Notes: generated by a model not told the origin, from the letters alone. DNA of 64,000 nucleotides from Leucoraja erinacea (GCF_028641065.1 NC_073386.1:56358001-56422000); one strand, 5' to 3'. Positions 1,700-63,831 are shown, counted from the first letter of the stretch. Program-made: numbers and translations.

Positions 1700-2291
1700 G
1701 CCTTTGTATCTCCTGACCAGAGCCCTCTCTCCCACCTGTGACTTTGTCTGTGGTGGAATCATTTGTTCTAGTCTGGAGAGTGAGCAGGCCTGTAACTAAA
1801 ACAACTGATCTACAAACAACCATTCTGGCCTTTCTGCCCGCCCCATCCCCCGCCCCCCCCCCCCCCCCCCCCCCCCTTCCCCCCCTTCCCCAACCCTATG
1901 CTCCACCTAGTCTTACACTCATTTCCCATTTTCCACCTAGATTCCTTCTTCTGGCTTCACATTTCACACACCTTTTCTTTGTCTTATCATCTATTGCCTT
2001 TGCCTATCAACCCCCCCCCCCCCCCCCACCTCCACCTCTCACTTGTATCAACCTATCAATTGGCACGGAGGAGCAGATGATGCATGAAAATCACCAGCCA
2101 GGTTTTGTCCTGCCCCTCCTCTCATCCAGCTTTCTAACCCCCCCCCCCCCTCACCACAATAAGTCTGAAGAAGGGTCCCAAACTGAAACGTCACCTATCC
2201 ATGTCCTCCAGAGATGCTGCCTGACCCGCTGAGTTACTCCAGCAAATTGCGTCTTTTTTTTGTAGACCAGCATCTGCAGTTCCTTGCCTCT
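1700..2291 (+). mobile_element. Penelope-like element terminal fragment (pyrimidine-rich region, hammerhead-like core, conserved tail)
   Basis: CTGAAGA...GAAACGTC at 2165-2192, followed by the window-wide tail CCAGAGATGCTGCCTGACCCGCTGAGTTACTCCAGCA...CAGCATCTGCAGTTCCT. PLE origin is inferred. Confidence 0.55.
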
Positions 2292-3419
2292 GCTAAAGCA
2301 CCTCATGCTTTGTTTGCATTGGATGACTTCACTTCTGCACGTTTGTGAGGATGCCAGGGTTCATGCTGCTACAAATTGTGAGTGATTACTGAGTGACAGT
2401 AATTGAGGACGACTTTAAATAAGAGGAACCCATTCCTTCTCCCTGCCGCCCTGGACTAATTTCCTCCGTATGGTCCGCACTTCCTGTAATCGCACACAGG
2501 TGCTTAGTTCAGTTTAGTTTATTGTCACGCGTACCGAGGGACAGTGAAAAGCTTTTATGGCATGCTATCCAGTCAGCGGAAAGACAATACATGATTACAA
2601 TTGAGCCACTTACAGCATATAGATACATGATAAGGGAATAACGTTACATGCAAGGTGATCTAATTTCACAGCGGAGGTGTCACTTGATGAAGAGGATACT
2701 TGTCGCTCCAGTACACTCTGTTACCTTTTCCTATCTGCAGGTTCATGATTCCTTTGACATTCAATTTTAATGGTTTCATTCAATTATGATCGCAATAAAT
2801 TATGCACAATGCAATCGAGTCTGTGGCCAATTACTCTTCATTTGGAGGCATGTCCGATAAACTCCCGTAATGTAATCCTCCAATTGACGCTAATCTTTCA
2901 ATTCACGGAACTGAGATGAAGAACTATTTTTTTGAACATTATTAAAACATTTTTGAAACGCCTCTACTTTTCATCAAGTCGAGTTTATTGCCAAACGCAC
3001 AAGTACGAAGTGCAGGTGCAATGAAAACCTTGTTTGCAGCATCAAAGGGCACATAGACGCTGACAAAGACACAAAAGCACAAATTATACATCAATTACAC
3101 ATCAATTCTGCAAGACTACAAAGGATAAGACGTGTTCAAAGGAAGACAGCTGGAATAGCTCAATCTGAACAAGGGTCCCGACCCGAAACGTCGCCTGTCC
3201 ATGTTCTCCAGAGATGCTGCCTGACCCGCTGAGTTACTCCAGCACAATGTTACTGACCGCTGAGTTACTCCAGCACATAAAATTATTTTATAAACCAGCA
3301 TTTCCAGTTAGTTGTATTAACAAGACATGTTCAAGGACATTTGCAAAAAAAAACCCTCAAGATATTATATAAAACCCAATGAGCAAACAAGTCAAATGCA
3401 AGAGGTTGTGTGTAAACAA

Positions 3420-3850
3420 ATAGTGCAAGTGGGTGTGTGTCATTGCTGAGGTAGGATTAGGGTTGTGCAGGTTGGTTCAAGAACCTAAGGTAGACAAAAG
3501 TGCTGGAGAAACTCAGCAGGTACAGCAGCATCTATGGAGCGAAGGAAATAGGCAACGTTTCGGGCCAAAACCCTTCTTCAGACTGGTTCAAGAACCTGAT
3601 GGTTGTCGGAAGGTAGCAGTTCCAGAACCTAAAACAGGTGAGGGACTTCAGGCTTCTGTACCTCCTGCCTGCGAGCAGGGACCGTTGACGATAGATGCCA
3701 CCTGCTTGGCACAGCGCCTAATGTAGATGCTTTCGATGGTGGGGAGAGCTGTGCCCATGATGGACCGGGCTGGGTCCATCACTCTCTGCAGCCTCTTGTG
3801 TTCCTGTGTGTTGGAATTGCCATACCAGGCCACAATACAACTAGTCAGGA
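3420..3850 (-). mobile_element. Rex1/Babar-like LINE 3' fragment, interrupted by a short insertion
   Basis: Peptide AWYGNSNTQEHKRLQRVMDPARSIMGTALPTIESIYIRRC is typical of the Rex1-type ORF C-terminus. Confidence 0.7.
3487..3583 (-). mobile_element. Young 97-bp hammerhead-bearing short element with 14-bp flanking duplication
   Basis: TGGTTCAAGAACCT at 3473-3486 and 3584-3597; core CTGAAGAAGGGTTTTGGCCCGAAACGTT at 3581-3554. Confidence 0.8.
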
Positions 3851-4701
3851 TTCCTTAAACCACATCCAATAATCAATGGAATCATTATTTCTACCCTCCC
3901 AATATCAGAACTTTTTTTCCTGGTCTTGGATGGAACCCTTCGTACAGATATGTACCTTTTCAGAAGGTAACTCACCCACATGTTTCTAGATTACATGACA
4001 ATTTACAGGTTTATGAAATACTGAATCAGGCTTTCCTATTTATGCTTAAAATAATCTTTTGTTAATTATATCTGGTAAATGATAATGAAGTAAATAAATT
4101 AAAAATAAGAAGGCATTTTTCATAGTAGTAAATAAAGTTCATGTATAGTTTTTATGAACCATCAGCCATGATTTACTTTCATAGATTAATGTTGTGGTTA
4201 AAATTTGATCAGAACATTAAGTGACTTTCATGTTAATTAAAGTGAAATTTGCATTCCAGCGCAAATAGGTTGTAAAGTATTGGACCCTTTCCTTATAATA
4301 TTTCTAATGCAGCTTGAAATGTTAATTGTACCATAACAGAAGTCATGTTGTTGTAATTAAGACATCATTAAATTTTCAGAACTAAATTAATAAGCCACGT
4401 GTCATTTCAAATAGGTGGCATTAAACCAATGAATAACTTTTATCTTTTAATATTCTAGTTGATCTTTACAGCAATGTAGTTCTTATATTTATACTTACAA
4501 TGCACAGAGGCCATTCAACCCATCAAGTCCGTGCCACTCCCATCCGTCCCTTTACCCCATTATTTATTTCAACGGTCTGAAGCACGGTTCCTTCTCTCCA
4601 GAAATGCTGCCTGACTGACTAAGTTACTCTAGCATTTTGTGTCTATCTTCAGTATAAACCAAAACCAACACCTCCAATTCCTTCCCACACATTTTGCAAT
4701 A

Positions 4702-5330
4702 TCTATATTACTAAAAGTCTGATCTTGACCGCTTTTGGCTCGCTGTGCTGCGATTTCTGAGAGAACGCCGCTACCTACGGCCGTCATTTTTGGCCACCTC
4801 GCTCAGAGCCCCCCTCCGCCTTCCGGAACCAGAAGATTTTTCCCATCGATAAAAAAATCTGAGATATATTAATGTTTTAAAATAATTTGCCATTCTCTCT
4901 GCTGCCCCTGCTTGAGGGAGGGGGAGCGACTATAAAACAAGGAAGTGGTGTGCCTAACTCAGTCTCTGCAAGATGGAGGAAGCCAGAGGGTCAAGTCTTT
5001 CTGAGCTCTGAATAACACTGAACACATGTCTACTCACCTGTGAGTGCTCTTAATGTGGTTTGAAAATGAAAATATGGTTGGTTTGTAGTAAACATGCACT
5101 GCAAATGGTTGTTTGGGTTGAAGTAAAAATGCACTGAAAAATTGTTGTTTGGGTTGAAGTAAAAATGCACTGCTAATGGTTGTTTGGATTGAAGTAAAAA
5201 TACACTGCAAATGGTTGTTTGGGTTGAAGTAATTGGTGGAAAGGTGGAATTGGTGGAGAGGTGGAATATTGCGTTGGGGGACCAGCCCTCCCGTGTGAAC
5301 ATGGGACCCAACGGGTCCCACTTAGTCTGG
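4702..5330 (+). mobile_element. Non-autonomous Helitron
   Basis: A|TC 5' end; subterminal hairpin TGGGACCC-AAC-GGGTCCCA (5302-5320); CTGG|T 3' end; no TSD; internal ~35-bp tandem repeats at ~5085-5231. Confidence 0.8.
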
Positions 5331-5960: not shown

Positions 5961-6311
5961 TTCTATAAATGTTATGGGGAGAAGGCAGGGGAATGGGGTT
6001 GGGAGGGAAAGATAGATCAGCCGTGATTGAATAGTTGAGTAGACTCAATGAGCCAAATGGCCTAATTCTGCTCCCATGGCTTATTGCCTAATGGTCTTGT
6101 AGTCACAAAAGACACAAAGTGCTCGAGTAAATCAACGGGTCAGGTGACATTTCTGGAGAACATGGATAGATGACGTTTCGAGTCGGGTCCCTCGTCATAC
6201 TCTTATCATGTACAGAAAACCAATAGAGAGAAAAGCAATATTAGAATTAGAATATGCATAATATATATGAATATTAGAATATGTGAATATGAGAATATAC
6301 ATTAGAATATA

Positions 6312-8604: not shown

Positions 8605-8618
8605 GTAAGAATTTCAAT

Positions 8619-8714
8619 TGTCTGAAGAAGGGTTTCGGCCCGAAACGTTGCCTATTTCCTTCGCTCCATAGATGCTGCTGCACCCGCTGAGTTTCTCCAG
8701 CTTTTTTGTGTACC
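8619..8714 (+). mobile_element. Young 96-bp hammerhead-bearing short element with 14-bp flanking duplication
   Basis: GTAAGAATTTCAAT at 8605-8618 and 8715-8728; core CTGAAGAAGGGTTTCGGCCCGAAACGTT at 8622-8649. Confidence 0.8.
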
Positions 8715-9622
8715 GTAAGAATTTCAATGTTCTGTTCTGGGACACATGACAATAAAACACTCTTGACTCTTGACTCCTGAAATGAACAGCCTTGAGTGAT
8801 CCATTTTCAAGCTATCTGTGAATGAAGGTACAGAGAGAGGGACTTGCCCATGCACTCTGATCCTCAGCATGTCTCGTTTGTCATTACATCGAGTCAGTCA
8901 CAAACTGGAAAAGGCATCAGAGCTACAAATGTGTGGTCTTTATTATTTTCCACTTCACTGTGCATCACACAAATACTCCCAACTTGTAAAGAAAGGGAAC
9001 ATACTGCGCTTGCCCGTGGAGAATACAACTAAATCAGCATCAAGATACTTCCTCAAAAGAACACTTCAACATCAATGATAAAGACTCTCAAAGGGGACTT
9101 CAATTTCAGTCAAAACAGTTCAAACAAAGTCCAAATAGTCAAATAATAACAAGGGGATCCCTGCAATACACTTGGTCCCTTCACCTAATATTACTGATAA
9201 CATATTATATTACTGATTATTATATATTTATCTGTGTGTTGTTGCATTAACATGCTTTTAAAGCTGGAGTAAGTAAGAATGTCATTGTTCTATCCCTGGT
9301 GGATCTGACAATTAAACACCCTTGACTATTGACACTTTCTTGTTGTTGAAGTTCGACACAAAGTGCTGGAGTTACTCAACGGGTCAGGCAGCATCTGTGG
9401 ACGACATGGATAGGTTTTGAGTCAGACTGGAGTAATTGTCGGAGTAACTGGATTGTATCGAGTTTTCAAAACCATTCTGGTGTCTGAACGAGCAATTCTT
9501 CCTCATTTTGCAATGCTTCTCATGTTTTATCTAAAGTTCCACAAAGCTTAACAATATTTTTTAAAACATAAGCACCAATCTCTACCTACCAAAGGGAGTT
9601 GATAATGTAACGTCTGCAAATT

Positions 9623-10698: not shown

Positions 10699-11442
10699 TG
10701 CAGTTCGGACCTCCGATGCTGTCTGTGTGGAGTTTGCAAATCAAAAACAAAAACAAGCCCGAAGTCCCTAGTGGCTTAATGATGATAGTTTGGACTTTAG
10801 TTGGAGTTCATCGCATTCAATAACCTGATGGCTGTTGGGAAGAAGCTGTTCCTGAATCTGGACATTACAGATTTCAGGCTCCTGTACCTTGTTCCTGATG
10901 GCAGGAGTGAAAATTAATATGAATACAACTTCACAGTTTATATCCAGCCTGGTTGGGTTAGGAACTGCATAGGAAACAACTACAGATCTGGTTTAAACCA
11001 AAGATAGACACAAAGTACGAGAGTAACACAGCGGATCAGGCAGCATCTCTAGAGAAAAGGAATAGGTGACATTTCAGGTCTGAACCTTTCTTCACACTGA
11101 AGTCTTCTGAAGAGTTCTGACCCGAAACGTCACCTATTTCTCTTGGGTCAGGGACTATAAGATTAACAAAGGTTTGCTGTACTGTGGTACAAAATAACCT
11201 CAGTTTAAGTAGGTACTGCACGATATTAATTGTCTGGTCTTTCTTCGACATGAAGCACCTTCCACCCACCACAAACCCGTGACAACGCGCCTGAGCCACT
11301 GCCCAATGATAAAATGACTTGCATGATTTGACTATCCTCCATGCTCCCACTGAGGAATGTAACCAGGAATGGGGGCTGAGAATGACTGCGACAGCGTAAA
11401 TCTGAAAATAAATTGTCTTCTCAATTTGGCATCTCTTCCAAA

Positions 11443-11640: not shown

Positions 11641-12668
11641 AGTAATCTTTAAAAAAGTTGGATTTTTCTCAGCACCAGTCCACGGATGCCTGGATTAGGC
11701 AAGAATCCCTTCTCATGGTGCATCTGGCACCAGCTACCCCAGACGACACGTTCCATTGTATTGAGGCAGAGAAACTGCATGTTGCCAATGAGGATTGTGG
11801 ACGTGATGAGGGCTGGTTTTGCTGCCGAGATTCTCATTCCAGATACACGGAGAAGGGAGCAGCTTCAGCGGAGTGAACATCCAGCCCCGACTTCTCTTTG
11901 TCTGACTAATTGCTTTGCCATCAAGCACTCTGAAGTGCACTCAGTTAATGAGTGTACCATCTTCTCGTGCTCAATATCTCTAATATATGAGCATGCACAA
12001 TTTTCACGGGTGCAAAATAACGGTGCATGAAAGTGATTGTTAAACTCTGTGCTCCTGCCTCAGAAGTTAAAGTGGAAATTGAAAATGCAGCAGCTTCATA
12101 ACTAACTTAAGGTTCATTAGCATATGATAGGGGGTGGAATTCAGTTGCCCTTTTGAAAATTATTTTGTATGCAAAGAAATTAAATTACAGGCAATGCAAA
12201 TTACCCATTGTACACATATTAAAATGATAATTATGGTCAACTATGCATTGGGAAAAATACCACATCACTTACCGCCTGAAATAATTAATCCTTATCCTGG
12301 CGTAGAAATAATTAGCGCGCACATCTCATTGGTTTTCCAAATGCAAATGTCATTACCTTTCAAATGCCATGAGGCAGCAGCAATTTCATTACTATTGAGT
12401 GCTGTCTTTCATTTAATAAATACACTCAAAAGTTGTTACAACAGCGCAGAACAAATCGGAATTTAAATCAACTAATTATTACTTAATCAACTTTTTGAAT
12501 TCGGCGTGACGAGTATGAACAAACAGTGGCTGATTTTCTAGGCAAAAAATATTCTAGAAGTGCCCTGAAACGTCGTCTGTCCATTTCCTCCACAGATGCT
12601 GCCTGGCCCACTGAGTTTTTCAGCTGTTTTGGTTTTACTATTAATCTTTCTACACTGTATTTTATGAA

Positions 12669-13787: not shown

Positions 13788-13909
13788 GGAATACTTACAT
13801 TTTAAAATGCAGTTACTACCGCATTCTGATGAAAGGTGATTGGTCCGTAAGAAGATGTTGTTCTCTCTACAGATGCTGCCTTACTTAGTGGGCATTTCCA
13901 GCATTTTCC

Positions 13910-14213
13910 GTTTAGTTTAGTTTAGTTTAGAGATACAGCACGGAAACAGGTCCTTCGGCCCACCGAGTCCCCACCGACCAGCGAACCCCCCACATTAACA
14001 CTACCCTACACACGCTATAGACAATTTGGATTTATAACAAGACAATGAACCTACTTTGTCTTTGGAGTGTGGGAGGAAACCGAAGATCTCAGAGAAAGCC
14101 TACGCGGTACGGAGAAGGTACAAACTCCGTACAGACAGCACCCGTAGTCGGGATCGAACCAGTGTCTCTGGCGCTGTAATCGCTGTAAGGCAGCAACTCT
14201 ACGACTGCGCCAT
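13910..14213 (-). mobile_element. V-SINE (HE1-like)
   Basis: (GTTTA)n tail at left; reverse V-domain and B-box. Confidence 0.8.
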
Positions 14214-14274
14214 TGTCTTTAGTTTAGATTTCCAACTCCGCGAGCATCTTGCATTAGTTTACCTGATTCTCCTC

Positions 14275-14690: not shown

Positions 14691-15177
14691 TGCACCTGTA
14701 TTCCAAGAGTCTGAAGAAGGGTCCCGACCCTAAACATCACCTATCCATGTTCTCCAGAGATGCTGCCTGACTCGCTGAGTTACTCTAGCACTTTGTGTCT
14801 TTTTTTGGGGGATACGAGCATCTGTGGTTCTTTGTTTTTACACCTGTATTCCCAGATCCCTCTGTTCCACAACACTCTCCAGGGCTCTACATTTACTGTT
14901 GTGCCGTGGGATGACACACCAAAGTACAACACCTCACACTTGCCAGAGTTAAATGAGGTTGTAATCCTCATGGCTTTACTCGATCTCGGAGAAGTCCGAG
15001 AGGATAGCTGAGGAATGCACATGGAACAAACATCAATATGTAATAAATAAGCTTAAACATTCTCAGCAGAACAGACTGACGTGCTGCCCGATTGATCACA
15101 AACTCTTGGACGATTCATTGCTGGCTTTCCACTGCCTCTTTGCCAGCCTCGTGAAGAGAGGGTGTATGTTTGAATGG

Positions 15178-15465: not shown

Positions 15466-15619
15466 TTTAAAGAATGACTTTGAAAGTAAGTCATTGAGTG
15501 AGACACAGCCCCAGACGACACGACAAGATTGCTTACAACAGTTGGGAAGGATGGTGGCGCTGGTGAGGAATGCAACAAATTCCTTTGTTTAAGTGATTGG
15601 GAAAGAATTCCTTGAAAAG

Positions 15620-15840
15620 ATACAAGCTAAATGCTGGAGTAAATCAGCGGGACAAGCAGCATCTCTGGATAGAAGGAGACGTTTTGGGGCGAGACCCTTC
15701 TTCAGATTGAGAGTCAAGGGAGAGGGAGACACAAAAATACGGAAGAGTAAGGTGTGAAAACGAGATATCAAAGGGGACGAAGTTCAAGGAAAATGTAGAA
15801 TAGAACATTGTTAGTTGGGGAAGGGTGACAACAAAGCTTA
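15620..15840 (-). mobile_element. Penelope-like terminal fragment with decayed hammerhead core
   Basis: Same tail and core (reverse) as 2165-2291, plus a purine-rich extension. Confidence 0.55.
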
Positions 15841-15943
15841 CATAGACTCTGGCTTCAGGCTAGATGTTGTGGTGAAAGAGAATGGACAGGAAAGGGTGCT
15901 GGACTCTGCAGAGAGGTGCACACTGTAACAACATATAACCCCT

Positions 15944-18811: not shown

Positions 18812-20025
18812 ACAGGATTAGCGCAAGTGGGTACTTGATGGCCTTTGCAGACTTGCTGAACTGAGAGCGTCAAGCTTGCTGAGTGTTCTAGAAATCGAAG
18901 CAAGGAACTGGTAGTGTTTTGCACAGATTTCTGTTTCTGATATACAACAGAGGAAATTCAAGATCGTATTCACTGTCCTTCATTAATTTTGCAGTGTTGT
19001 ACTGGAGTTTTGACCTGTTACTTGTACGCACTGTGTTTATATTTATTTTCACTCCTGCAGAGCTAAATGGTGCAGCGTGCAGAGAATAGCAATCAGTCTG
19101 TTGAAGCTCGTAACGTTACAACGTGGATGCTTCCATCTGGTTAATGTTGTGTGATGCAACGTAAACTATTGACTGGAGGCGTCCGACCTGAAACTTTCAA
19201 TAGAAGGATCAAATTCACATTGGTGGGACATAAACTCACCTTCCAATTGATTCATAGCAGGAGTAAAAATTTGTATTGTATAAAACACAAAGTGCTGGAG
19301 GAACTCAGCGGCTCAGACAGTATCTGTGAATGGACAGGTGACGTTTCGGTTCGGGACTCTTATTCAGTCTAAAGGAGTGGAGGGGAGATAGTGAGTAGAG
19401 TGAAGGAAGGAGATGGCATGGGGCAAGAGTTGATGGATGCATTCAGGTGAGGAGAGGTTGTCTGGCAGGTAAGTCCCAGACTTGGTTACGACCTCCACCT
19501 ATCTCTCCCCCTCTCATCTCTCAACCAGCCCCTCCCCATCTGAATGCATCTCTCCCTTACAAGTTCGTGCCACACCTCTTCCCTTCCTTTCGCTTTGCCA
19601 ACCATCTCCCCGCACTTCCGCCCTCCTGCCTGACCCACTGAATTCTCTCCGCTCTTTGTTTTAGTTGATTCAGGATTCCGGGATCTGCAGCTCCGGAGTC
19701 TCTAAGGAATTGTTGGACTGTGCCAACAAATTAATGTTTGAATCGACTGGCACAAAGTGGCTCTGCGAACACCTTCTTCCATTAATCGTATCATTTAACA
19801 TTTTAAAGATGCTACTTATTCCAGATTTCAATTTGGCATTAGCAATTCGTGCTCTCTGTTCAAAAACATTCTTGAGGATCTCCCATTGACAAACACTGCT
19901 GCAGGATAATTTCTTATCGATGATAAAACAACATTTGGTGCAACAGGAAATAATTTAGTTGCAGGCCAAGACTAGTCGTTTTTTTTTAATAGGTCTAATT
20001 TTGATTTATCTCAATAGACATGGAG

Positions 20026-20868: not shown

Positions 20869-22014
20869 TTTGGGACCTTTCTTCCTACATAGAAATACTG
20901 GATGAGATTAAAGAGAGGAGGAGAGGTGAAATTAGACATGGCCAGGGTGGTTGCACCAGTAATAATATTGGCTGCCTGTTTGAGATAATGCCTCCAATTG
21001 ATCCCTTCAATGGTGGGGAGGTCAGTACTTGTGATGGACCAGGCAGTCCTTACCACTCTCTGAAACCTCTTTCATTCCTGCACGTTCAAGTCACCTCACC
21101 AGGCCGTGATACAAGTCATTATGCTCTATATGTACACCAGTAGACGTTTGCTGGAGTTAACTACATTTCGCCACAGATGCTGCCTGACCTGCTGAGTGTT
21201 TCCTGCATTTTCTGGGGTTAATTGTACATTTCACGCATCTGCAGGAAGCTTTTCGAAAAGTTTGCTTTTTTTTCTTCATTTTTAATTGCAGTATTACCCA
21301 CATCTGTGTTCAAGAGGCTCACAAACATCAGCGTCAGAGATTCTGAGTCAATGTTTAGTTGACCTTGATATCGCTCAAAGGTTTATTTTTATATTCCCTT
21401 TAGTTGTTCTTGCTGTCTCTCGGTTCTTCCATTTGTATTTATAAAATATCTCCCAACTCCATGAACCTACAGCATACTTTGCCCTCTTATATACTCTCTC
21501 CTCAAGTTGTTCATTGGTCATGGGTCTTAACTATACCTTAGGGTTGCACATCAGACCAATATCTAAATATATTCTCTTTGGAACCTGTCTACTGTGTTAT
21601 TTTGCCCAGTTACTGTCTTGGACCAGTTTCCTGTAATTGTTTTCTATCCTACTCTGCTAAAATTAACCTTTGTAAAATTTAGAAATCTTGTAACATCAAA
21701 AGTGTTTTATTGACATATGGCCTGAAACATGACATTGGAATTCTTACTTGCAGCAGAACAACAGAATATGTAAACATAGTAATCTGTAATCTGTAAAACC
21801 TATAATAAACAAACTGTAAGTTTATGTAGTTCAGAGCTGATGTGGAAGTTGTAGTGTTTAATAGTCTGAAGATAGACACAAAAAAGCTGGACTACCTCAG
21901 CGGGAACGGCAGCATTGCTGGAGAAAAGGAATAGGTGAGGTTTCGGGTCCAGACCCTTGTTCAGACAGCAGAAGGGTCTCCACCCCAAACATAATATTTT
22001 CCTATTCTCCAGAC

Positions 22015-22600: not shown

Positions 22601-22784
22601 TGCTGCCTGACCGCTGAGTAACTCCAGCATTTTGTGTCTATCTTAGGTGCAAACCAGTATCTGCAGTTCCTTCCGACACGTGTTTTAAAAGCCTGATAGT
22701 TGGAGGGAAGAAGCTGCTCCTGATTCTGGACGTTACAGTTTTCAGTCAATAACTATGTTGGGTTTGTTGAGGTTTGATGCCTCA

Positions 22785-24648: not shown

Positions 24649-25791
24649 ATATTTCAATCAATCAATTCAACTCAATTCAATCTCTTCAGCATAACCATAC
24701 ATATTTGATGGTCATGGCAGAAGCCCAGATTCTTGCCCTTGGCTGGTTTGTCAGGCGATTCATCAGGTTATCCCATGTTCATCTTTATTATGGAGTAGGG
24801 GCAGCCAACCTATTGTAACAGTCTCTGGATAAGATAGGTTTATGGAGATATGTGCCAAATGCCATTGTAACTGAGTATGGATAAGATAGATTTAGAGGGA
24901 TATGGGCCAAATGTTATTGTAACAAACTGTGGATAGGATAGGAACAAACAGCTAACAATGGCCTGTTTCCTTTATCATTGTTACTTTTTTTGCATATCTT
25001 TCATTCATTGTTCTTTATCTCTCTACATCATCGCCTATATCTCTCGTTTCCCTTTTCCCTGATTAGTCTGAAGAAGGGTGTCGACCCGAGACGTTACCCA
25101 ATCCTCCTCTCCAGAGATGCTGCCTGTCCCACTGATTTACTCCAGCTTTTTGTATCTATTTTAGGTTTGGAGGGAGGCAGGTGGGACCAGTATAGAGGCA
25201 TCAAAACTCTGCTTCTCGTTATGCATACGTAGTATGGATGGAGGTGATTTAGGAAAGCAGAACTCAAAACCAGGACTAAAGTTAATCCAGCAATTCCTCC
25301 CACAGTTAGTTTTTGCACCTGATCCCAACCTCTGCCGTCACTGTGTCCCCTTCAATACACCTGTTCCAAATATTTCTCGGGGCTTACTGTTCCCAAAGAT
25401 TCTTCCAGACACACTCCATGCATTCCAACTAACTGATCTTATTTACTTCCAAATAGTGAGCAGTGTATGGGAAGATTAAAGTGTCACTTAATTATGGTAT
25501 TATCATCTACAACAGGTTTGTTCTTGATTGGAACATAGAAAAGTACAGAATGTAGGTCCTGGTCTTCTCTCCCCTCCAGCCCTTTAGCTTCCTTCCTCCG
25601 CATAACCCCGACTTTCCGTCTGAAGAAGGGTTTCGCCCATCCTTTCTCTCCAGAGATGCTGCCTGACCTGCTGAGTTACTCCAGCACTTTGTGCTTATCT
25701 TTTTTCTGGAAAAGTACAGCTGAGGAACTGGCTCTTCGGACCACAGTGCCCTTGCCGAACACGATGACAATTTAAATTAATGCGTTGGCGA

Positions 25792-26185: not shown

Positions 26186-26311
26186 AGAAGGACGGTTTCG
26201 GCCCGAAACGTTACCTATTTCCTTCGCTCCATAGATGCTGCTGCACCCGCTGAGTGTCTCCAGCATTTTTGTGTACCTCTGATTTTCCAGCATCTGCAGT
26301 TCCTTCTTGAA
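26186..26311 (+). mobile_element. Young hammerhead-family short element (5' core altered) with 11-bp flanking duplication
   Basis: TACATTAGATT at 26175-26185 and 26312-26322. Confidence 0.75.
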
Positions 26312-26594
26312 TACATTAGATTCATGCATGATTAGTGTAAATGGGTGGTTGTGGATTTGATGGGCCAAAGGGCCAGCTTCCATGCTATATCTGTCTATGT
26401 ATCGCTCATAGCACAATCCCATACTGAAGCACACACTGGCCCACTTCTGGTCACTGTAGTGGTTTTGGGTACCATGGTACTGTATTCGGAATGCCCACCA
26501 GGGACTGTTATACCATCACCCTAGTTTACACAAAGGCGGGGATGGCTTCAGTGCAACATAACGTAGATGTATACTGTCCATATTACAGCATGGA

Positions 26595-31143: not shown

Positions 31144-31400
31144 ACCAATCCTATGTTTCACATCCTGATTGAATTGATCTCCACGTCAGTGCTTCGAAGG
31201 CAAGAGTTCAACATTGTGCTGAGCTTACACATCCTGACCATTTACAGCCTGCCAGGGTCAAACCCCCATACTTCAGAGTTCAGCACCTGGCCAGTTAAAC
31301 AGCTGCAAAGAGACACAGAGATGTATTTCTACAACGAAAGACACAGTGTACTGGAGTAACTCAGCGGCTCAGGCAGCATCTCTGGAGAACATGGATAGGT

Positions 31401-44265: not shown

Positions 44266-47200
44266 CTGCAAACCAATCCCATGTAATCTTTTTACCGATC
44301 TTTTGATGCTTTCATCTAATCACAAACCACAAATCATTGCTATAGATAGATATAGATAGATATATAGATAGATAAATTATTTAAACAGCTAAAACTATTA
44401 ATTAAATAGATCAGCATTAAATGGTCTGGGGTGCCATTGTGATATTAAAAAAACACTTAATACCATTGACTGGCCCACACAATGCTAGTTCATAACAATG
44501 GCACACATATAAAACTATTTTACCTAACGAGTTAGGAACTATAATTCTTAAAACTTAAAATGAGTTTATTCAAGCCCTATGTTGCATCCACCAGTATTCT
44601 AGCGTGGGAGGAAGTGGTGAAGGCTCTCGGTGAGTTATTTACCCCGATACCCCCCCCCCCCCCCCCCCCCTCCCTCCCCCCCCCTCCCTCCCTCCCTCCA
44701 CCCCTCCCTACCGCCTCTCTCAACTCCATGGCCCAAGAAAGTACTCCACGGCGCGGCTGCCACACGGGAGTTTATTTACCAACCATCCCAATCTCAACGA
44801 CTACCCCCCGTTTAGCCAAATGCAGCAAGTTGTAGAGATCCTACCGACTATCTACGATCAGTTAACTTTGGGAAATTAATTAAGAATGAGAGGCGTGAGC
44901 CGGTTGGAAATGCAATTTGTTCTAATGGTTAGCAAGATGGGCGAATTGTCATTTTGGGTAAGGTCTAAAATCCTTGGATTAACTCTCAGTTCTGGGTTGT
45001 GTATTCAGCGCCTAAGTCTGCAAGTGTTCATCCTATCTTGGTGTTTAAGAAGGAACTGCAGATGCTGGAAAATCGAAGGTACACAAAAATGCTGGAGAAA
45101 CTCAGCGGGTGCAGCAGCATCTATGGAGCGATGTGCTGCTGCACCCGCTGAGTTTCTCCAGCATTTTTGTGTACATCCTATCTTGGTGTTCAGTCCACCA
45201 TCCCTCAGTGCAACAAGACCGATCAAACCGGGACTTACGCCACGACAATGTTATTAATGGGACATATATTTGAAAGCGGATGAAACATAGATGCTCTCTA
45301 TACCACCCCCCTCCTTAAGCATTTGGGTTCTTGTTTTAATGTATCTGGCGCTCCCGGACGTTACTCTGTTAATGTGTCAGTACTTTGCAATTTAAAAAAG
45401 TTATCTTCTTGGTGATTACAGAACATTAAGGAAGGGAGCGGGGAAACTAGGGTTAAAATCTCCTTTGTAAATAGGAACGCGTCTTACCTGCAAAACTCTT
45501 TTGGTGAGCCCAGTTTTCTGAGCGAGTTGCTTTAAGTCTTTCGCGTCTGGGTTGTGGTTTATGGCGAAGTAGGACTTCATGGTGCGGAGCTGGTGGTGCT
45601 TGAAGGAGGTGCGCATTCGCTTGGTTTTCTGGGTCGGCGGGTAGGACTGTTGTTCCCTGTCCAAGTGGTCAGCGTCGTTCTCATTGCAGCCTAGGACGCA
45701 GAAACAGAAGCGCGCTGTGTGTTAATTGCCGCTCCCACTGAGCTCCCGCTCGCCGCTCTATCAGTTGCTGCCTGCACTAGGTGGCGCTAACTCCCCATCC
45801 TTCACCACTGGGTTCCATATCATGAGATAGTTGTAATCCATATAAATTATGGTAGAGTTTGTGTTTGCCACATAATGCCTGGGATATTGGTTAAACCCCT
45901 CTTTCTACTCTTCCTAAGGCTCCCAGATCAACCAAGCTCTCAGGAATTTTGATATTTTGGCAATCTCTCCTCAAAATATTACATTACAAATAACATGCAA
46001 AGATGGCCTTGTGCTTTGTGCGGAGTGACATGTTTTCGTACTAAACCCATGGGAGGAATCAATTTCGTTAAGTACGTTTGCTGCATTTCATTTAACTGTG
46101 TGCGATCACCGCCGGTTAAGGTTCTAATGGCGGAAACGCAATCTGATCACTACATTAAATAATTGTTGATCGCTATTTGGTATTACGTGCAGCTATACTT
46201 TTTAATTCAGTGGCCTTACTAGCAAATGCAAGATGATGCCATATTTGGAAAACTCGTTTGCTTCCCATAATGTTAATGCATTCAATGAAAGAACTTTCTT
46301 AAAATTACACATCAAACTACACATTAAATTTTTTTTTAAAGTGGATACCACACTTCCAAAAAATAGCGTATCACGTTTAAATAAATGGTTTGAGTTATTG
46401 CAAGCTTAGTGAGATTTTATTTTCGGTCACATATAATTTTACAGTGACATTAACTGTTCGTCTCACTCTGCATCAGAGTAATTTCAAAGCAAGTCTAATC
46501 TTCCGATTCTAGCTCGATCTCTTGTAAAAGGCACAGATAACTGGCGCAGCTAAGGGATCTTTCTAGCTACAGAGGCACCGGGCGCAGTTTCATTAAAAAA
46601 AACTTAAGCAACCAACTTCCCCGTTTTGAGTTTTTAAAAAGTGTGGCCTTATATCTAAACCAAGTCAGATAGTACGGGCAACGAGTGGACCGAGTGCTCC
46701 CTGACTTCTACGATTAATTTATGTTTCATTAAACGGCTTTCCTGAGTTTCATTTTAGCCCATTTTAATTTTAATTGGACATGCATGGTAAATGGTTGGAA
46801 TTTGCAATTACATACGCAAAGGTTAGCATTAACAATCTAATGCTATATTTGCAAATCCATTATGAAAGTATTAAGAATCTCCAACAAAGTCACTATTAAA
46901 AAAATACTGCCTATTTATAAAATGTCTAACTGCCCACAAAGAAATTGTGTTTTTACATTGTTTATTTGTCCATTCTGTGCAAAACCAACCGTCTATCTAC
47001 ACAAAGTACTGAAATACCAGCTATGCAAAGTGGTTTTACACGGTATGAACAAAAACGCTTTTCTTGCTGTCAAATACACTCTAATACGAAATGAATGAAC
47101 ATTTAAAGACGTATTAATTGGCATTAGGCGAAAATGAATGATAACTCCAAAGGGGTAGACCAATGAGTATCTACAATTGTGGTCCTTTAAGTTACGGTAC

Positions 47201-51344: not shown

Positions 51345-51733
51345 TTAGGAGGAAGCCGAGAGGGGAGAGATTTAATGAGGGGCAGCTTTTTTTTCATTCA
51401 GAGGGTGGTGGACATTTGGAACGAGCTGCCAGACGAGGTAGTTGAGGCAGGTATTATCACAACATTTTAACGACATTTGAACAGGTACATGGATAAGCAA
51501 GGTTTAGAGGAATATGGGACAAACGCGAGTAATCGAGGGTAGTGTAGATGGGGCAAGATGTGTATGAAGGAACTGCAGATGCTGTGTTAAACCGAAGATA
51601 GACACAAGATGCTGGAGTAACTCGGGAGAGAAGCAATGTGTGACATTTCGGGTCGAAACCCTTCTTCAGTCTGATGGGGCATCTTGGCCGAGTTGGACCA
51701 AAGGCCTGTTTCCTTGCTGTATGAATCTGTGAC
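51345..51733 (+). mobile_element. Old CR1 3' fragment with nested hammerhead-family insert (~51560-51672)
   Basis: CR1 tail is split by the insert; GATGGGGCA occurs on both sides. Confidence 0.7.
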
Positions 51734-53761: not shown

Positions 53762-54090
53762 AGTGTAGGGAGGAACCGCAGATGCAGGGTTATACCGAAG
53801 AAAGACACAGAGTGTTGGAGTAACTCAGCTGGTCAGGCAGCATCTCTGGGGAAAGGAATAGGGTCGAAACCCTTCTTCAGACTGAGAGTCGGTGGGAGAG
53901 GGAAACTAGATGTAATACAAGATTTAGAACAAATCAGATGGGGCACCGATGACCAAGGAATGTTGGAGCCCACAATGGTCCACTGTTGGCTGTGGGAGAG
54001 GTGACAACGAACGGATATATGGATGCGAACAATGGAACTGGCAGGCCGGCTAGGATGGCATCTCTGGAGAAAAGGAATAGGTGATGGATG
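53762..54090 (-). mobile_element. Penelope-like terminal fragment(s)
   Basis: Reverse tail, partial hammerhead core (53861-53881) and purine-rich extension. Confidence 0.55.
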
Positions 54091-57000
54091 TTTGTGGTGG
54101 GAATTCTTCTTCAGGAGAAATGTCCAGTCGCCCATGAGAAGCGCGGCTCCGACACTCAAAGATACCGACCCCTTCCCCTGTGTACTGACCCTTTCCTCTG
54201 TGTACTGACCCCGCGGACCAGAAGTACGTGCACTCCCCGGAAGATGTAAAGATACTATAGGGGTTACTCTGTAAATGCGACTTAAACCCGCCGCAGCCAA
54301 ATGTTCAAGTCAAGTCAAGAGAGTTTATTATCATGTGTCCCAGATAGGACAATGAAACTTGCAAATTCACAGTGGCCTTTTCAGACTTTCAGTTTGTAAT
54401 TCTAAACTTTACACAACAGGAAGACCAATCTAAATATTAACCACGGCTGAGATTTTTACTTTACACCATTTAAACCATTATCGTTCTTTGATTTTAAACG
54501 GGTTAACCTGGCCAGGTAACCCTGTTTTAAAATGCACCTTAACACACACAACTCCGCAATTGGATTGGAGGGATTCACGGGTGTGCTTCCCATTTCCCGA
54601 AATCGAAACTATTTTATCCGTGGTAAATGACGCCCATTTTTTTTACAAAAACACCGTGAACTTTAAGAGTTTCGAGATGCAATTGACAGAGGGATATGCA
54701 GCGCTGCGAAATGGGGCAAATATCCTAGTTACACTGGGACCTCTTCTGCCCACTGACAACACTTAATCCCGCTCCGTGTAATTACTAACTGTGCCTCAAA
54801 ATGACTGAGCATGTAACTAAAAATTACCCCGCGCCCCATCCGCAAATGTTTACTCGTTGTCAAAAGCCGGCGCTCGGTTACCGCTAGGCACTTTGTTAAT
54901 ATGATGAACACACTTTTGTCTCCAACACTTTTGTCATTTCTGCCTCTCGCGGCGTTCCGTCATCGTCTTTGTTTCTTTTTCTGTCTTTGCCTCCCTCTGT
55001 CTCTCCCTCACACCCCATATGCCTGTCCTGATATACAGTTTAAACTAATTGGTTTAGAATAAATCCTCTGACTGGCTGTTTTAGCCCCAGTCTCTGCTGT
55101 GCCAGCTGCTGCCTGTTTGATCACACCTTCATCCCAGACTGTACGGGGGTTCCTGTCTACGGAGCCTCTCTTTCCCGCTCCTCTGGGACCCCATATACGG
55201 CCGTTAGAGCGTGTGCAGAACATATAGAATAAATGTCCCAGCGAGATGCAATCTTCTAGCCAGCATCCTACCTGCAAATTAACTGATAGCTCGCCCTTTT
55301 GTCCCTCAGTACAACTATAATGCTGAACATTTATTAACTGGAGGAGCGTTTAATTTTTGTGTTGAGCAGATTCAATTAGCAGTGCGCACTGCTTAGCGGG
55401 TAGACGCATCGGCCAGATTGCCAGGGTTTAGCTCATAAGGCACAATTTCATGTGAAAATGAAGTCAATCAAGTGAAATAAGCAGTGATTTGTTTGTTGCT
55501 GGCACGTCCTAGGATGTGCAGCAGGGCTGTTATTTGCTGTAAGTAATGCAATTAGCCGTTTGTACAGAAATCAGTGGTTTATATAAATAGACCAGCGATA
55601 GTTGTACATGTGTGCAGACATACTCGAGAGGAAATACCCATTATCGAGGATGTTTCTCATGGTGCTGTCACGTGTTAATATCCACAATTATTTTCATCGC
55701 TATAATTTTTTTAATCTTACATCAGCCACTAGTGAATAGGGAAAGGGAAAGTCACAAGTATATCGGAGGCTAGATTAATGTAAAACACGGCGATTGAACC
55801 CAAGTAGAAAATGAGGACATTACATCTTGAGCTATATTTAAGAAGAATATCTGTAAATCTGTTAATGGTCATAACAAATTGTCTGGGTGTTCAGAATACA
55901 TTACATGATCTCGCCCCTAGCATGTTGTTATGTGATCTAATCGAATGCAATGTTATCCGATCGCATCACACCTAATATACTGTGGAGGAGTTTTATTCCA
56001 GAATTGAACGATTGTATCGGGCGACAGGCAACCTTCTTCATTCTGCTAAAGTCCATGGCTCTTTGACACACGGAACAGTTCTGAGTTCGAAGTCAATCTA
56101 TCCAAATACATTATGATATACCCAATCTGAATCTCACCTTTTGCAACATTAGATCTGTACGCAACCGTTTAATGGTGCCGGCTGTGGGGGGGAAGGGGAG
56201 GATTTTAATGTTTTACATCCATTCTCGGCGATTTCACGTGGACATTAATGCACAAATAAAGAAGGTACATGCAAATATTATTCTAAGATAATAACCCCAA
56301 CCAATGGGAGGCCGTTAAATTCCACTAATGAATACGTATTTAACTCTAATTAACGACTATCTAATGAGGACTTTATGTAAATTCAAACAAACATTAAATA
56401 TGAGGATCCCCCGCGCGCCTGAAGGCGAGTTATCCGTATGTCTGTGAAACACACAATAACACATTTTAGATTTCTTAATGTACTATTCTCGGATCTAAGG
56501 TTCCCACAAACAGAAGCGACGAGCGCTTTCAAACCGCTGCTGAAAGAACCAAGCCAAAGAATTCTCTCCCTCCATCCCAATATGACAGATAAAAGCTCAA
56601 TCATAACCCGGGCTTGATTGAATGAATTCAATTAACATGCTGTGAAGTCCGAGTACTTTCTTTCCCATTTGTTGTACAATACACTTCCTCTACTTCTATG
56701 CAAAACTGCAGGTGCATTAGAGACGAGGAGCTATTTTTCCATTTCGGGCAAGAGAAAAACGTTTTTAAATTTACATATCTGTCTCTGCTCAATAGCACTA
56801 TTACCAGTAATTGGCCGGGTACAATAACATAACTCAAATATGGCGAAACCCATACATCTGTATTCATTTAATTAATTCTCTGATCTCCTGGTTCGCTCCA
56901 TCAAGCGCAGTCAGGTACACGGGGCGATGGGCTGTTGACAAGCCGAGGCGATTGTCGGTTTTGTAACCCAGCTATCCGGACATTTCAAAATTATAACTTG

Positions 57001-60000: not shown

Positions 60001-61146
60001 CGGGTTTGGGCAAGTGGCTGGCGAGCTGCCTTGCCCCTGCTAATTACAATGAAAGAGCGGCGTGTGTAGAGTGTTCCCGCATTGTGCCCGCAGTCGGAAC
60101 GCCGGCCTCACTATATAACTGACGTGAAGGTGCCTTGACCCGCCTCCGGCAAACCACCGGGTCTTTATTCTTGTTATTTATTGATCTGTACCCGGCCCGC
60201 AACACAAAGCAAACAGAGTTTTCAGCAAAGAACGGCCTTATCTTCTTTCTAAATATCACCGTTTCCATATGAAGTGTATATTTGCAATCTGAGTTACTCC
60301 AGCACTTTGTTTTTTCTCTCTCTTGCAAACCAGCATCTGCAGTTGCTTGTGTCTCAAAGTTTATCTTTCTACCTTGCCTTTATTTTGTAGGAGGAACACT
60401 GAAGAAGGGTTCCGATCCGAAATGCCACCTATTCCACACATGCTGCCTGACCCGCTGAGTTACTCCAGCACTTGGTGTCTATCTTCAGTAACATCCATCT
60501 AATTCGGTTCTTGTCAAAGTTGTTCTATTGGCCACCGTGCTTGCACTCTGGCCAGTAACAACATCCCACCCAATAATTTGGTGCTTGTAAGGTCTTTTTT
60601 GCATCTATTGAAGTTGTTTAGACTTGTACACTCGTTGGCTAATCACATAGACCAGTGGAGACTCAAATATCGTGTCTCACCCCCAATATCCATCCCCGAA
60701 GTCCTTTTAAAAATATACTTTGAAAGCGTGTGCTCGTTCGCTCTCAATGAGCCAGATTTAATATTTATCTGTAAACAAGTGAAAGCAGTTTAGGGTTGTC
60801 GCTGGCGCTAATAACGACTGTTCCTGCTCCCTCGCCAACACCATGATGATATATTGCTGAACTTACCGCGACGTGAACAGGTCACCCCACCGGGATGGTC
60901 TGGATAGGCGACGTATTCGGAAGTCGTGCTGGCCAACGTCGTGTTCATTGTTCTTATTGCATTAGCCACGAGCAACATAAAACGTTTCAGACAACGGAAA
61001 GGATCCATTTTACGTGCGAATTCTTGATTCGCTATAGACAGTGTTGGATCAATACTCGCTTTGGTATTGGCACGTTGGGCTGGTGACTGACCCAGATGTC
61101 TTAGATTGAACTATTGAACGGATACAAAGAGTGACTTGAACAATAT

Positions 61147-62101: not shown

Positions 62102-62663
62102 AGAACTAGAAGCTGTCACACTGCATCTGCATATTATCATATGATAAAAAAACAGAAAATGTTGGAGTAACTCCGCGGGTTGGGCAGCGTCTCTGGAGAA
62201 TAGGTAACGTTTCGGGTCGGGACCCCTGTTCAGATATGAAACGTCACTTATCCACGTTATCCAGAGATGTTGCCTGACCCGCTGAGTTACTCCAACACTT
62301 TGTATCTTTTTGTTTGTAGACCAGCATCTATCTGCAATTACCGGTGTCTATATTCTCATACGAAGCCCTCTGCAACCGTTTTGGCCAGAAGTATCGACCT
62401 GTCTATTGTGATCCAATCGCCAAACAATTCGCCGTGTAAACAATGCCATGTGAACTGAACATAGAGTATGATCTAGAAGTCTGAGTTTGGGCACCCGTCG
62501 TATAAAGGTACAAACAGTGACTTGAACGAGATTTTTAAAAGATTGATTAATAGACAGAGGCGATGCAAGGCCGTCTATTACAACGAATAACAAAATATTT
62601 TCTAAAGGCATATATACCTACCTTCCAGGAATAAACGAAACCTAATGTATACACATAACATAG

Positions 62664-62886
62664 AGCATAGAACAGTACAGGACAGGGAAAGGCCATTCGG
62701 CCCATGGTCTGTACTGAACATGATGTCAAATTAATCTAATCTCCTCTGCCTGCATGTGATCCATTTCTCTCCATTCCCTGCATATCCATGTGCTCGTCCA
62801 AAGCCTCTTAAACGCCACTTTTGTTTCTGCCTCCACCACCACCCTTTGTATATAAAACCTGCCCCGGATATCTCCATTAAACTTTA
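62664..62886 (-). mobile_element. CR1-type 3' end
   Basis: ATAGAACAGTACAG...GGCCATTCGGCCCA, the reverse of a CR1-type tail. Confidence 0.7.
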
Positions 62887-63390
62887 ACAGGAAATTGTCC
62901 GCTAATACGAATATTTATTTGTCCGTCCTGACGTTGTTTGCAACACAGAATATAATACAGGAGATACAAGAAACTGCAGATGCTGGATTGCAAAAAAAAA
63001 AAAAACACAAAGTGCTGGAGTAACTCAGCGGGACAGGCGGCATCTCTGGAGAACATGGATAGGTGGCGTTTCATGTCGGGACTTTTTCCAGACTGATATG
63101 TTCCTTGGTCTGTTATACAATATGTTAGTTGATTTCTGGCAATAATGTCAGAAGATTTCCTTGAATTTTATGAAATGTTTTTTGAAACAGAGTCATTTGC
63201 GTAACGCGGTAACAACGAGTTCTTCATACATTTATTTCGACAATTATGGAGTCATTGCAAAATACTCTCGACTGAGCATCATGTAATGATCAACCCGCCG
63301 ATGTTGTCTTCGAATAAGATCACGGATCGATGCCACCAGAGGTTTTCATTTCTTTACATCGTGACCCGGACAACTGATAAGTTCTCCGAA

Positions 63391-63831
63391 GGCAGACACA
63401 AAATGCTGGAGTAACTCAACAGGACAGGCAGCATCTCTGGAGAGAGGAAATAGGTAGCGTTTCGTGTCGAGACCCTTCTTCGGAGTGAGTCAGGAAAGAG
63501 AGAAAAGACTAGAGATATGGAAGGGTAAGATGTGAAATAGACAGATCAAATGAGATGTTCAAGAAGGAACTGCAGATGCTGGAAAATCGAAGGTCGACAA
63601 AAATGCTGGAGAAACTCAGCGGGTGCGGCAGCATCTATGGAGCGAAGGAAATAGGCAACGTTTCGGGCCGAAACCCTTCTTCAGCGGAGATGCTGTAAAG
63701 GAAATGTTGAAAGGTCATTGTTAGGACGGAACTGGGTCTGATGGAATGGTCTCGACCCGAAATGTCACCTATTTCTTCTCTCCGGAGATGCTGTCTGATC
63801 CACTGAGTTACTCCAGCTTTTTGTGTCTATC
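63391..63831. mobile_element. Inverted-pair hammerhead-family element with a younger copy nested at ~63558-63686
   Basis: Outer arms are reverse complements; the inner copy has an intact core at 63684-63657 and is flanked by GAGATG. Confidence 0.72.

What the first reader, a model, noticed from the sequence alone, without database searches (positions are those of the whole stretch)
2161..63684. Abundant short repeat carrying a minimal hammerhead ribozyme core (Penelope/retrozyme-like system)
Seen: roughly 20 intact or decayed copies of CTGAAGA-A-GGGT(N4)(A/G)CCC-GAAAC-GT(C/T). Examples are at 2165, 3165, 8622, 14711, 25068, 33178 and 60398 (+) and at 3581, 31428, 35511 and 63684 (-), nearly always followed by the same ~70-100 nt tail. 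Loop II varies (CCCG, TTCG, CTCG, TTTG) while the stem II pairing is largely kept. Known: CUGANGA, GAAA and UH form the hammerhead catalytic core, and minimal type I hammerheads with a palindromic helix III (here ACGU) occur in Penelope-like element terminal repeats, where they are thought to act as dimers. Inference: this is a non-autonomous PLE-derived, ribozyme-bearing family present at about one copy per 3 kb. Caveats: helix I is only 2-3 bp, so monomers may be inactive, and the family may already be in repeat libraries.
Basis: partly seen in the sequence, partly recalled or inferred. Interest (0 to 1): 0.7.

Follow-up and report, generated by a model that had tools for sequence, protein, structure and literature searches.

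The report
Penelope retrotransposon ends with minimal hammerhead
The repeat is the end piece of a known kind of jumping gene (a Penelope-like retrotransposon), left as roughly a million fragments in this cartilaginous-fish genome; it carries a known miniature self-cutting RNA motif that decays unselected in the scattered copies, so most copies likely cut nothing.

Summary
Observation confirmed. The window holds 51 fragments (5,008 nt); 27 span the motif and 5 of those 27 are intact. The repeat is the terminal repeat (pLTR) of an RT + GIY-YIG Penelope-like element of Neptune/Nematis type; one near-complete parent has it at both ends. Distant relatives keep the same minimal type I hammerhead with compensatory changes, so it is a real structure under selection in the element lineage. 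Here helix I is only 2 bp, and in inserted copies the core mutates like the invariant tail. It is not a retrozyme: copies are dispersed, do not start at the cleavage site, and short copies share their variants with long, ORF-linked copies. 3' ends fall at two sites (+91-100, +126-137), fitting internal priming. About half of young copies start within 9 nt of the motif's 5' edge; a transcription-start origin is possible, not shown. Known kind (Cervera 2014). The scan found this family before on other DNA of this genome.

The parts
1506..1630 (+). decayed pLTR fragment (+6 to +130; +1 = the A three bases before the core's C3)
2159..2287 (+). subfamily C copy, core intact, stem II 3 of 4; C-rich upstream shared with other C copies
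3160..3250 (+). subfamily C copy, G8 changed
3462..3587 (-). subfamily A copy, intact motif at 3581, target-site duplication 11-16 bp
4585..4690 (+). tail-only fragment
6099..6201 (-). subfamily C copy, core broken
8619..8714 (+). subfamily A copy, intact motif at 8622, starts at +2, ends near +94, 14-bp target-site duplication (8605-8618 / 8715-8728)
9345..9417 (-). tail fragment
10966..11141 (.). head-to-head pair, long arm core broken
12561..12636 (+). fragment from +18
13861..13921 (+). weak tail fragment
14706..14836 (+). subfamily C copy, G12 changed, 16-bp target-site duplication (1 mismatch)
15612..15846 (-). subfamily B copy, G12 changed, continuing upstream into the parent's 3' UTR (79% over 224 nt)
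19282..19372 (-). subfamily C copy, core broken
19626..19694 (+). weak tail fragment
21166..21246 (+). tail fragment
21857..22014 (.). head-to-head pair, core broken
22601..22680 (+). tail fragment
25062..25169 (+). subfamily B copy, A14 changed, pyrimidine-rich upstream
25615..25714 (+). copy with deletion of the GAAA half of the motif
26186..26313 (+). subfamily A copy starting at +5/+6, 11-bp target-site duplication
27121..27222 (+). copy starting at +7
29910..30046 (-). subfamily B copy, core broken
30370..30593 (.). head-to-head pair, core broken
31310..31433 (-). subfamily C copy, intact motif at 31428
33173..33280 (+). subfamily B copy, A15.1 and stem II changed
35406..35514 (-). core intact, stem II 3 of 4, internal deletion in tail
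36106..36228 (+). old copy, core broken
36370..36653 (.). head-to-head pair plus a further + copy, cores broken
36918..36964 (-). tail fragment
37321..37362 (-). tail fragment
37754..37913 (-). two tail fragments in direct tandem (spacing 66 nt)
45042..45177 (.). subfamily A tail-only head-to-head palindrome, 22-bp flanking duplication (1 mismatch)
51559..51675 (-). motif intact by descriptor at 51669 (helix III pair G-U), tail deletion
53762..53885 (-). subfamily B copy, GAAA half deleted
54058..54114 (-). short decayed motif fragment
60289..60510 (+). tail fragment plus copy at 60399, U16.1 changed
62123..62339 (.). head-to-head pair, core broken
62965..63097 (-). subfamily C copy, core broken
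63380..63488 (-). subfamily B copy, core broken
63556..63839 (.). subfamily A copy with intact core and stem II at 63684 (-), starting at +4 so without its helix I 5' strand; a + copy at 63735-63839 (core intact, stem II 3 of 4)

Best explanation
The repeats are the terminal repeat (pLTR) of an endonuclease-containing Penelope-like retrotransposon, and most are very short insertions likely made directly from that element's own RNA, with the minimal hammerhead motif copied along uncut. Shown: the repeat flanks an RT + GIY-YIG ORF; short and long copies share the same variants; 3' ends sit at two sites (+91-100 and +126-137) downstream of the motif and upstream of the ORF start (+168); insertions carry 9-18-bp target duplications and often a head-to-head partner; 5' ends pile up at the motif's 5' edge, not at its cleavage site; the core decays neutrally once inserted. 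Inferred, by analogy with the anole Poseidon element tested in vitro: the element's protein nicks DNA and starts reverse transcription inside the RNA at one of the two sites, reading through uncleaved RNA; about half of young events end at the motif's 5' edge. Inferred: the hammerhead matters only in the element's own RNA cycle (likely as a dimer or with protein help) and is inert in most dispersed copies.
For: Near-complete parent L138 (G000:C5): repeat at 3279-3414 and 7126-7233 around an ORF with DKG, YIDD, CX4CxxC linker and CCHH-type GIY-YIG; Pfam RVT_1 E 7.6e-6 and GIY-YIG E 0.0074. The motif follows the ORF end in 15 of 20 long-ORF loci and in 18 of 30 loci picked by the ORF's C-terminal codons, 16 of them at 191-232 nt. 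3' ends of 73 of 83 subfamily A copies lie at +91-100 (41) or +126-137 (32). No diagnostic site between 23 long and 74 short A copies, all p > 0.14. Head-to-head 101 against tail-to-tail 6 among 567 fragments. Exact target duplications in 37 of 110 young copies; 5 of 41 window units against 7 of 200 random places. Only 10 of 511 fragments begin at +30..+34 around the cleavage site, no more per base than +37..+70. Core against invariant tail sites: A 57/1182 vs 78/1202, C 26/243 vs 237/2883, G 43/481 vs 105/1442, T 35/479 vs 90/1683, all p > 0.09; G12 reads A in 51 of 245, like a tail CpG (51 of 248). PMC11167929 (parts 1-2 of 4 read): internal initiation at two sites, uncleaved RNA as main template, ribozyme needs protein. 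PMC8557442 (passages): inverted 5'-truncated copy and 30-40-bp tail are typical.
Against: Both Pfam hits on L138 are below the curated cut-offs (L136's RVT_1 passes); L138's ORF is broken in its 5' part, so no intact active copy was shown. A naive comparison gave the core a lower substitution rate than the whole tail (6.7% vs 11.5%); it vanished only after restricting the tail to sites invariant between subfamilies. The short-versus-long test covers subfamily A only and 62 positions; no ORF-linked parent of subfamily C was found, so C could have had a non-autonomous master. The mechanism is borrowed from a Poseidon-clade element whose initiation sites lie inside the ORF, whereas here they lie before it. 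No cleavage or reverse-transcription data exist for this family.
Confidence: 0.85

Rival explanations
1. The short copies come from a separate non-autonomous master (SINE- or retrozyme-like) that borrows the Penelope protein.
For: 145 of 245 spanning copies are solo and only 33 show parent upstream sequence; sharp 5' pile-up; no ORF-linked parent found for subfamily C; bioRxiv 10.64898/2026.07.22.740005 (part 1 of 5 and passages) reports retrozymes in one chondrichthyan and derives retrozymes from PLEs.
Against: No diagnostic variant between short and long A copies; only 29 of 307 motif-covering copies have a same-strand neighbour within 400 nt; copies do not run from cleavage site to cleavage site; 5' lengths form a continuum up to the full ORF; several C copies share a pyrimidine-rich upstream like a parent 3' UTR.
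Confidence: 0.08
2. The dispersed motifs are working ribozymes that cut host transcripts, in trans-dimers through the ACGU palindrome, and have been kept for that.
For: About 145,000 intact motifs extrapolated (66 in 999,900 nt); the repeat is abundant in polyA RNA of related species on both strands.
Against: Neutral decay of the core; helix I only 2 bp against 3-6 bp in 14 of 18 relatives' motifs; the youngest subfamily has a GUU triplet, which I recall as a poor hammerhead site; head-to-head partners put the second motif on the other strand, so they cannot dimerise in cis; no pile-up of read ends in 3 runs (a weak test); min-HHRs are inactive as monomers and weak as dimers (PMC4209133, parts 1-2 read).
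Confidence: 0.05
3. The hammerhead likeness in this lineage is vestigial: the sequence is now kept only as promoter or protein-binding site.
For: Helix I reduced to 2 bp, GUU in subfamily A; minimum-energy folds give only stem II or other pairings for monomer and dimer; tail is about as conserved between subfamilies as the core.
Against: All three subfamilies keep all 11 core positions and stem II (U-G/U-A change) and the two helix I pairs; relatives at 45-55% protein identity keep the identical core with compensatory helix changes. This rival is compatible with the best explanation on origin and differs only on catalysis.
Confidence: 0.25

Closest known systems
Minimal type I hammerheads (min-HHR) in pLTRs of metazoan PLEs: Xena, Poseidon, Neptune, Cercyon (Cervera and de la Pena 2014, PMC4209133; main text parts 1-2 of 4 read, supplement file 2 searched by term)
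   Same: Core CUGANGA / GAAA / UH, extra base between 9 and 10.1, G10.1-C11.1, palindromic 15.2-16.2, no helix III; located in both pLTRs; most copies single and widespread, read there as truncated PLEs.
   Different: Helix I 2 bp (4-5 bp in Schistosoma; 2 bp in D. virilis); about 145,000 intact motifs extrapolated here against about 4,000 (coelacanth) and 9,000 (X. tropicalis) reported; no shark or skate term in the searched supplement file (file 1 not searched).
EN+ PLEs of the Neptune/Nematis clades (Craig et al. 2021, PMC8557442; passages)
   Same: C-terminal GIY-YIG with CCHH, CX2-5CxxC linker, DKG motif, partial tandems, inverted 5'-truncated copy, 30-40-bp tail.
   Different: Neptune versus Nematis not resolved: no named reference sequences were available for a tree.
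PAc, Poseidon of Anolis carolinensis (Frangieh et al. 2024, PMC11167929; parts 1-2 of 4 read)
   Same: Two 3' end sites about 35-40 nt apart downstream of the hammerhead; copies include the uncleaved motif; no RNA-seq ends at the cleavage site.
   Different: Different clade; in PAc the ORF starts inside the hammerhead, here 136 nt after the cleavage site; nothing was assayed here.
Non-LTR retrozymes of animals (Cervera and de la Pena 2020, PMC7229834; passages; bioRxiv 10.64898/2026.07.22.740005; part 1 and passages)
   Same: Short, non-coding, type I hammerhead, related to PLE pLTRs; copy number like the axolotl's 126,247 motifs.
   Different: Retrozymes are tandem units of 150-450 bp with canonical hammerheads, expressed as circles; these copies are dispersed or head-to-head, about 95-135 nt, minimal type.

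Membership tests
EN+ Penelope-like element (Neptune/Nematis) | Single ORF with RT and C-terminal GIY-YIG endonuclease | tested here: met
   L138 844-aa frame with RT motifs and GIY-YIG; Pfam hits weak but in order; 1,635 homologues, many with RVT_1 and GIY-YIG
EN+ Penelope-like element (Neptune/Nematis) | CCHH motif in the endonuclease and CX2-5CxxC linker | tested here: met
   Read directly in the L138 translation; feature list from PMC8557442
EN+ Penelope-like element (Neptune/Nematis) | pLTRs / partial tandems, inverted 5'-truncated copies, 30-40-bp tail, target duplications | tested here: met
EN+ Penelope-like element (Neptune/Nematis) | Placement in Neptune or Nematis by RT phylogeny; identity with a Repbase/Dfam entry | not testable with these tools
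   No named PLE references or repeat library available
Minimal type I hammerhead (min-HHR) | Conserved core, extra base after A9, G10.1-C11.1, palindromic 15.2-16.2 | tested here: met
   All subfamily majorities; 16 invariant columns across 9 sequences
Minimal type I hammerhead (min-HHR) | Covarying helices I and II | tested here: met
   9 sequences (3 from this genome, 6 of 17 relatives, chosen for equal length): first two helix I pairs 9/9 and 8/9 paired with 5 and 4 double changes; 0/500 shuffles reach the score. Stem II was required by the search, helix I was not
Minimal type I hammerhead (min-HHR) | Self-cleavage as a dimer or with protein | not testable with these tools
   Needs bench assay; standard RNA-seq showed no end pile-up
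Rfam hammerhead families | Score against Rfam covariance models | tested here: not met
   No hammerhead family at E <= 5
Non-LTR retrozyme | Tandem repeats of 150-450 bp, each unit with a hammerhead | tested here: not met
   29 of 307 motif-covering copies have a same-strand neighbour within 400 nt; 98 an opposite-strand one
Non-LTR retrozyme | Canonical type I hammerhead (helix I about 6 bp, loop-loop contact) | tested here: not met
   Helix I 2 bp, no helix III
Non-LTR retrozyme | Expression as unit-length circular RNA | not testable with these tools
   Only polyA/cDNA runs of related species were laid
Non-autonomous SINE-like family | Own master sequence with diagnostic variants | tested here: not met
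   Subfamily A: none between 23 long and 74 short copies; B and C not tested

The most novel reading that the evidence does not exclude
The short copies are complete cDNAs of the first ~95 or ~135 nt of the element's mRNA: transcription starts at the 5' edge of the hammerhead, internal priming at the two tail sites runs off the capped end ('strong-stop'-like products), and hundreds of thousands were inserted. The hammerhead would then overlap the core promoter, its 2-bp helix I being all the 5' copy can form, and the genome would be a base-resolution record of how Penelope elements prime and rebuild their end repeats. For: about half of young subfamily A copies with the whole core start at -7..+2; 4 of 39 ORF-start copies begin at -4..+2 and none at -125..-5. 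Against or open: 21 of those 39 extend further upstream; a cap-derived extra G is inconclusive; a reverse-transcriptase stop at the RNA structure would give the same pile-up; no RNA 5' ends were mapped.
Probability: 0.4. Interest if true: 0.55.

Novelty: new member of a known kind. Interest (0 to 1): 0.3.

Why it matters
As a class it is known since 2014. What this genome adds is scale (about 4.7% of sampled DNA, an extrapolated 145,000 intact motifs, 15-35 times the coelacanth and Xenopus counts and close to the axolotl's) and a large natural record of insertion ends that agrees with the one in vitro study of Penelope priming. If the 5' pile-up marks the transcription start, the open question of how pLTRs are rebuilt becomes testable by 5'-end mapping in a fish whose relatives have RNA data.

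Tried and rejected
Rfam scan: no hammerhead hit; its top hits (Plastid-psbJ-4 at 45095-45158, miRNA models) are a head-to-head palindrome of this repeat and simple repeats. No PLE ORF remnant in the window by tblastn. PDB sequence search with one ORF piece: none; Pfam on three short ORF pieces of L052: none. L052's upstream repeat looked like a 5' pLTR but is of another subfamily than its ORF and was dropped. No RNA holder was listed on record for the query; three raw RNA runs of related species were laid instead: high two-strand depth on the repeat, little on the ORF, no end pile-up; too blunt to show a start site or cleavage. Cap-derived G: G 954, T 658, C 452 before +2, but 13 of 30 G-class copies sit at inverted junctions and C forms a CpG; among duplication-bounded copies an extra G or GG in 4 of 10 against an extra lone T in 0 of 10: inconclusive. 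Naive excess conservation of the core rejected after matching sites. Minimum-energy folding does not recover the hammerhead fold and cannot be expected to. Likeness of +25..+32 to the D. virilis Penelope downstream promoter element (PMC2377424, passages) is 5 of 8 letters: a lead only; the initiator likeness at +1 is recalled, not tested. Lunse et al. 2017 is not held; seen only as a reference in PMC6765202 (passages). Searches for a paper describing this family in skates or sharks or a strong-stop reading of PLEs listed none by title or abstract start; subscription papers, Repbase/Dfam and bioRxiv supplements were not visible and may hold it. The host-gene context of the window was not determined.


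Full report
Observation. All 11 cited places carry the motif (60398 is 60399). A profile built from 15 window copies and iterated once finds 51 fragments, 5,008 nt, in 41 units. 27 span motif and tail; 8 of 27 keep the catalytic core and 5 of 27 are fully intact. A structural descriptor hits the same 5 places, against 1 hit in total in 30 dinucleotide-type shuffles. Rfam has no hammerhead hit. Numbering below: +1 is the A three bases before C3; the predicted cleavage falls after +31.

Scale. In 100 arbitrarily placed 10-kb stretches (999,900 nt) there are 489 fragments covering 4.7% and 66 descriptor-intact motifs, which extrapolates to about 1.1 million fragments and 145,000 intact motifs. 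256 spanning copies fall into subfamilies A (35 copies, 5.7% from majority, UUCG loop, GUU triplet), B (109, 10%, CUCG, GUC; plus 13 with a tail deletion) and C (99, 17%, CCCG, GUC); 59 of 256 are fully intact. The best named protein relatives are from Chiloscyllium and Rhincodon, so the host is a cartilaginous fish; earlier notes call it a skate.

Parent. Upstream of some copies lies the C-terminus of a GIY-YIG domain. In 18 of 30 loci picked by those C-terminal codons the motif follows within 700 nt, 16 at 191-232 nt. Among 20 loci picked for long RT frames, 15 have a subfamily A repeat just after the ORF. L138 has the repeat at both ends, 3,847 bp apart, with a start codon at +168 after the 5' copy, a break in the 5' part of the frame, and an 844-aa frame with DKG, YIDD, a CX4CxxC linker and a CCHH-type GIY-YIG. 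Pfam gives RVT_1 (E 7.6e-6) and GIY-YIG (E 0.0074), both under cut-off; L136's RVT_1 passes. By the features in PMC8557442 (passages) this is an EN+ Penelope-like element of Neptune or Nematis type; which one is untested. The window itself has no ORF remnant; one copy (15612-15846) runs into the parent's 3' UTR.

Is the hammerhead real? 80 metagenome loci encoding relatives (31-63% protein identity) were fetched. 17 of 80 have a sense-strand motif, 18 in all; there were 5 antisense hits, 2 of them inverted pLTR copies and 3 weak. They keep the same core and extra base with different stems. On 9 equal-length sequences (3 from this genome, 6 of the 17) stem II is 97% paired, and the first two helix I pairs, which the search did not require, are 9/9 and 8/9 paired with 5 and 4 double changes; 0 of 500 shuffles reach the score. 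So the structure is selected in the element lineage. In this genome helix I is 2 bp, against 3-6 bp in 14 of the 18 relatives' motifs.

Is it selected after insertion? A first comparison gave 6.7% for the core and 11.5% for the tail, but the tail contains subfamily-variable sites. Against invariant non-CpG tail sites, base by base, there is no difference (all p > 0.09), and the catalytic G12, a CpG, reads A in 51 of 245 copies, like a tail CpG (51 of 248). The dispersed motifs decay neutrally.

How the copies are made. 3' ends of 73 of 83 subfamily A copies lie at +91-100 or +126-137, the optional 30-40-bp tail of PLEs, which PMC11167929 (parts 1-2 read) ties to two internal initiation sites on uncleaved RNA. 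Exact target duplications of 9-18 bp were found in 37 of 110 young copies and in 5 of 41 window units against 7 of 200 random places. Adjacent opposite copies are head-to-head 101 times and tail-to-tail 6 times; 7 head-to-head pairs were called in the window. Of 245 spanning copies 33 continue into parent upstream sequence, 67 have an inverted partner and 145 are solo; subfamily C had no upstream reference, so solo is overcounted. For subfamily A genome-wide, 3,786 exact copies lose the parent sequence at +1/+2 (954, 658, 452, 1,722) and 6,777 keep at least three more bases; of 30 of the latter, 23 run on for tens to hundreds of bases, 1 for 13 and 6 for only 3-7 (two of the 23 judged by eye). 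Roughly half of these young copies therefore start within -7..+2; classes with C at -1 but no further match were not counted. There is no pile-up at the cleavage site: 10 of 511 fragments start at +30..+34. Among 39 copies holding the ORF start (41 listed, less the query and one partial), 21 extend at least 126 nt upstream, 4 start at -4..+2, 14 at +15..+153.

Separate family or by-product? 23 long and 74 short A copies show no diagnostic site over +33..+94. Only 29 of 307 motif-covering copies have a same-strand neighbour within 400 nt. Retrozymes are tandem units with canonical hammerheads expressed as circles (PMC7229834, passages; bioRxiv 2026.07.22.740005, part 1 and passages). Two of those features fail here and the third is untestable. 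Cervera and de la Pena (PMC4209133, parts 1-2) already report that min-HHRs occur mostly as single motifs from truncated PLEs, inactive as monomers and weak as dimers.

RNA. No holder on record as RNA was listed. In three raw RNA runs labelled as related species, depth over the repeat was in the thousands, equal on both strands in two runs, against tens or less on the ORF; 89-97% of laid reads ran on into unlike sequence, and no place had many starts or ends. The repeat is carried in host transcripts; the test is too blunt for cleavage or a start site.

Verdict. A real, very abundant feature of a known kind: pLTR stubs of a Neptune/Nematis-type PLE bearing a min-HHR. The scan has noted this family many times on other DNA of this genome (nothing near this window). 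The open point of interest is the 5' pile-up at the motif's edge, which may mark the transcription start (lead from note e1-9854223, partly tested here, unresolved).

Noticed in passing
window 12645-13700, 20611-20900, 28439-28903, 31958-32149 and others: Many fragments of one LINE-like RT family (repeat families D10, D16, D19, D20; RT-like frames); I recall them as CR1/L2 type, not tested.
   Followed up: no
window 1048-1230, 6306-6488, 9625-9807, 11426-11521, 15272-15367, 17404-17586, 32311-32493: A second short dispersed family (D12/D14), SINE-like; ARAGORN finds no tRNA gene in the window.
   Followed up: no
window 34847 (-), 218-aa frame: Frame resembling the C-terminal part of an L1/Tx1-type ORF2 (recalled likeness).
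   Followed up: no
window 25792-26131: 24-bp minisatellite, about 14 copies.
   Followed up: no
window 37754-37913; L147 8679-8855 (oriented): Direct tandems of the ~66-nt tail piece; in L147 units start at the GAAA half of the motif.
   Followed up: no
L136 (G000:C23:17836000-17845999): Two RT-bearing copies head-to-head about 4 kb apart, one with a 1,052-aa open frame.
   Followed up: partly
L340, L360, L370 (metagenome contigs): Distant PLE relatives with hammerheads at both ends (L340, 3,066 nt apart) or as inverted terminal copies (L360, L370).
   Followed up: partly
L138 3214-3277, run X22: Single-cell run shows strong one-strand depth over the pyrimidine tract before the motif, likely oligo-dT priming on the antisense A-rich strand.
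   Followed up: no
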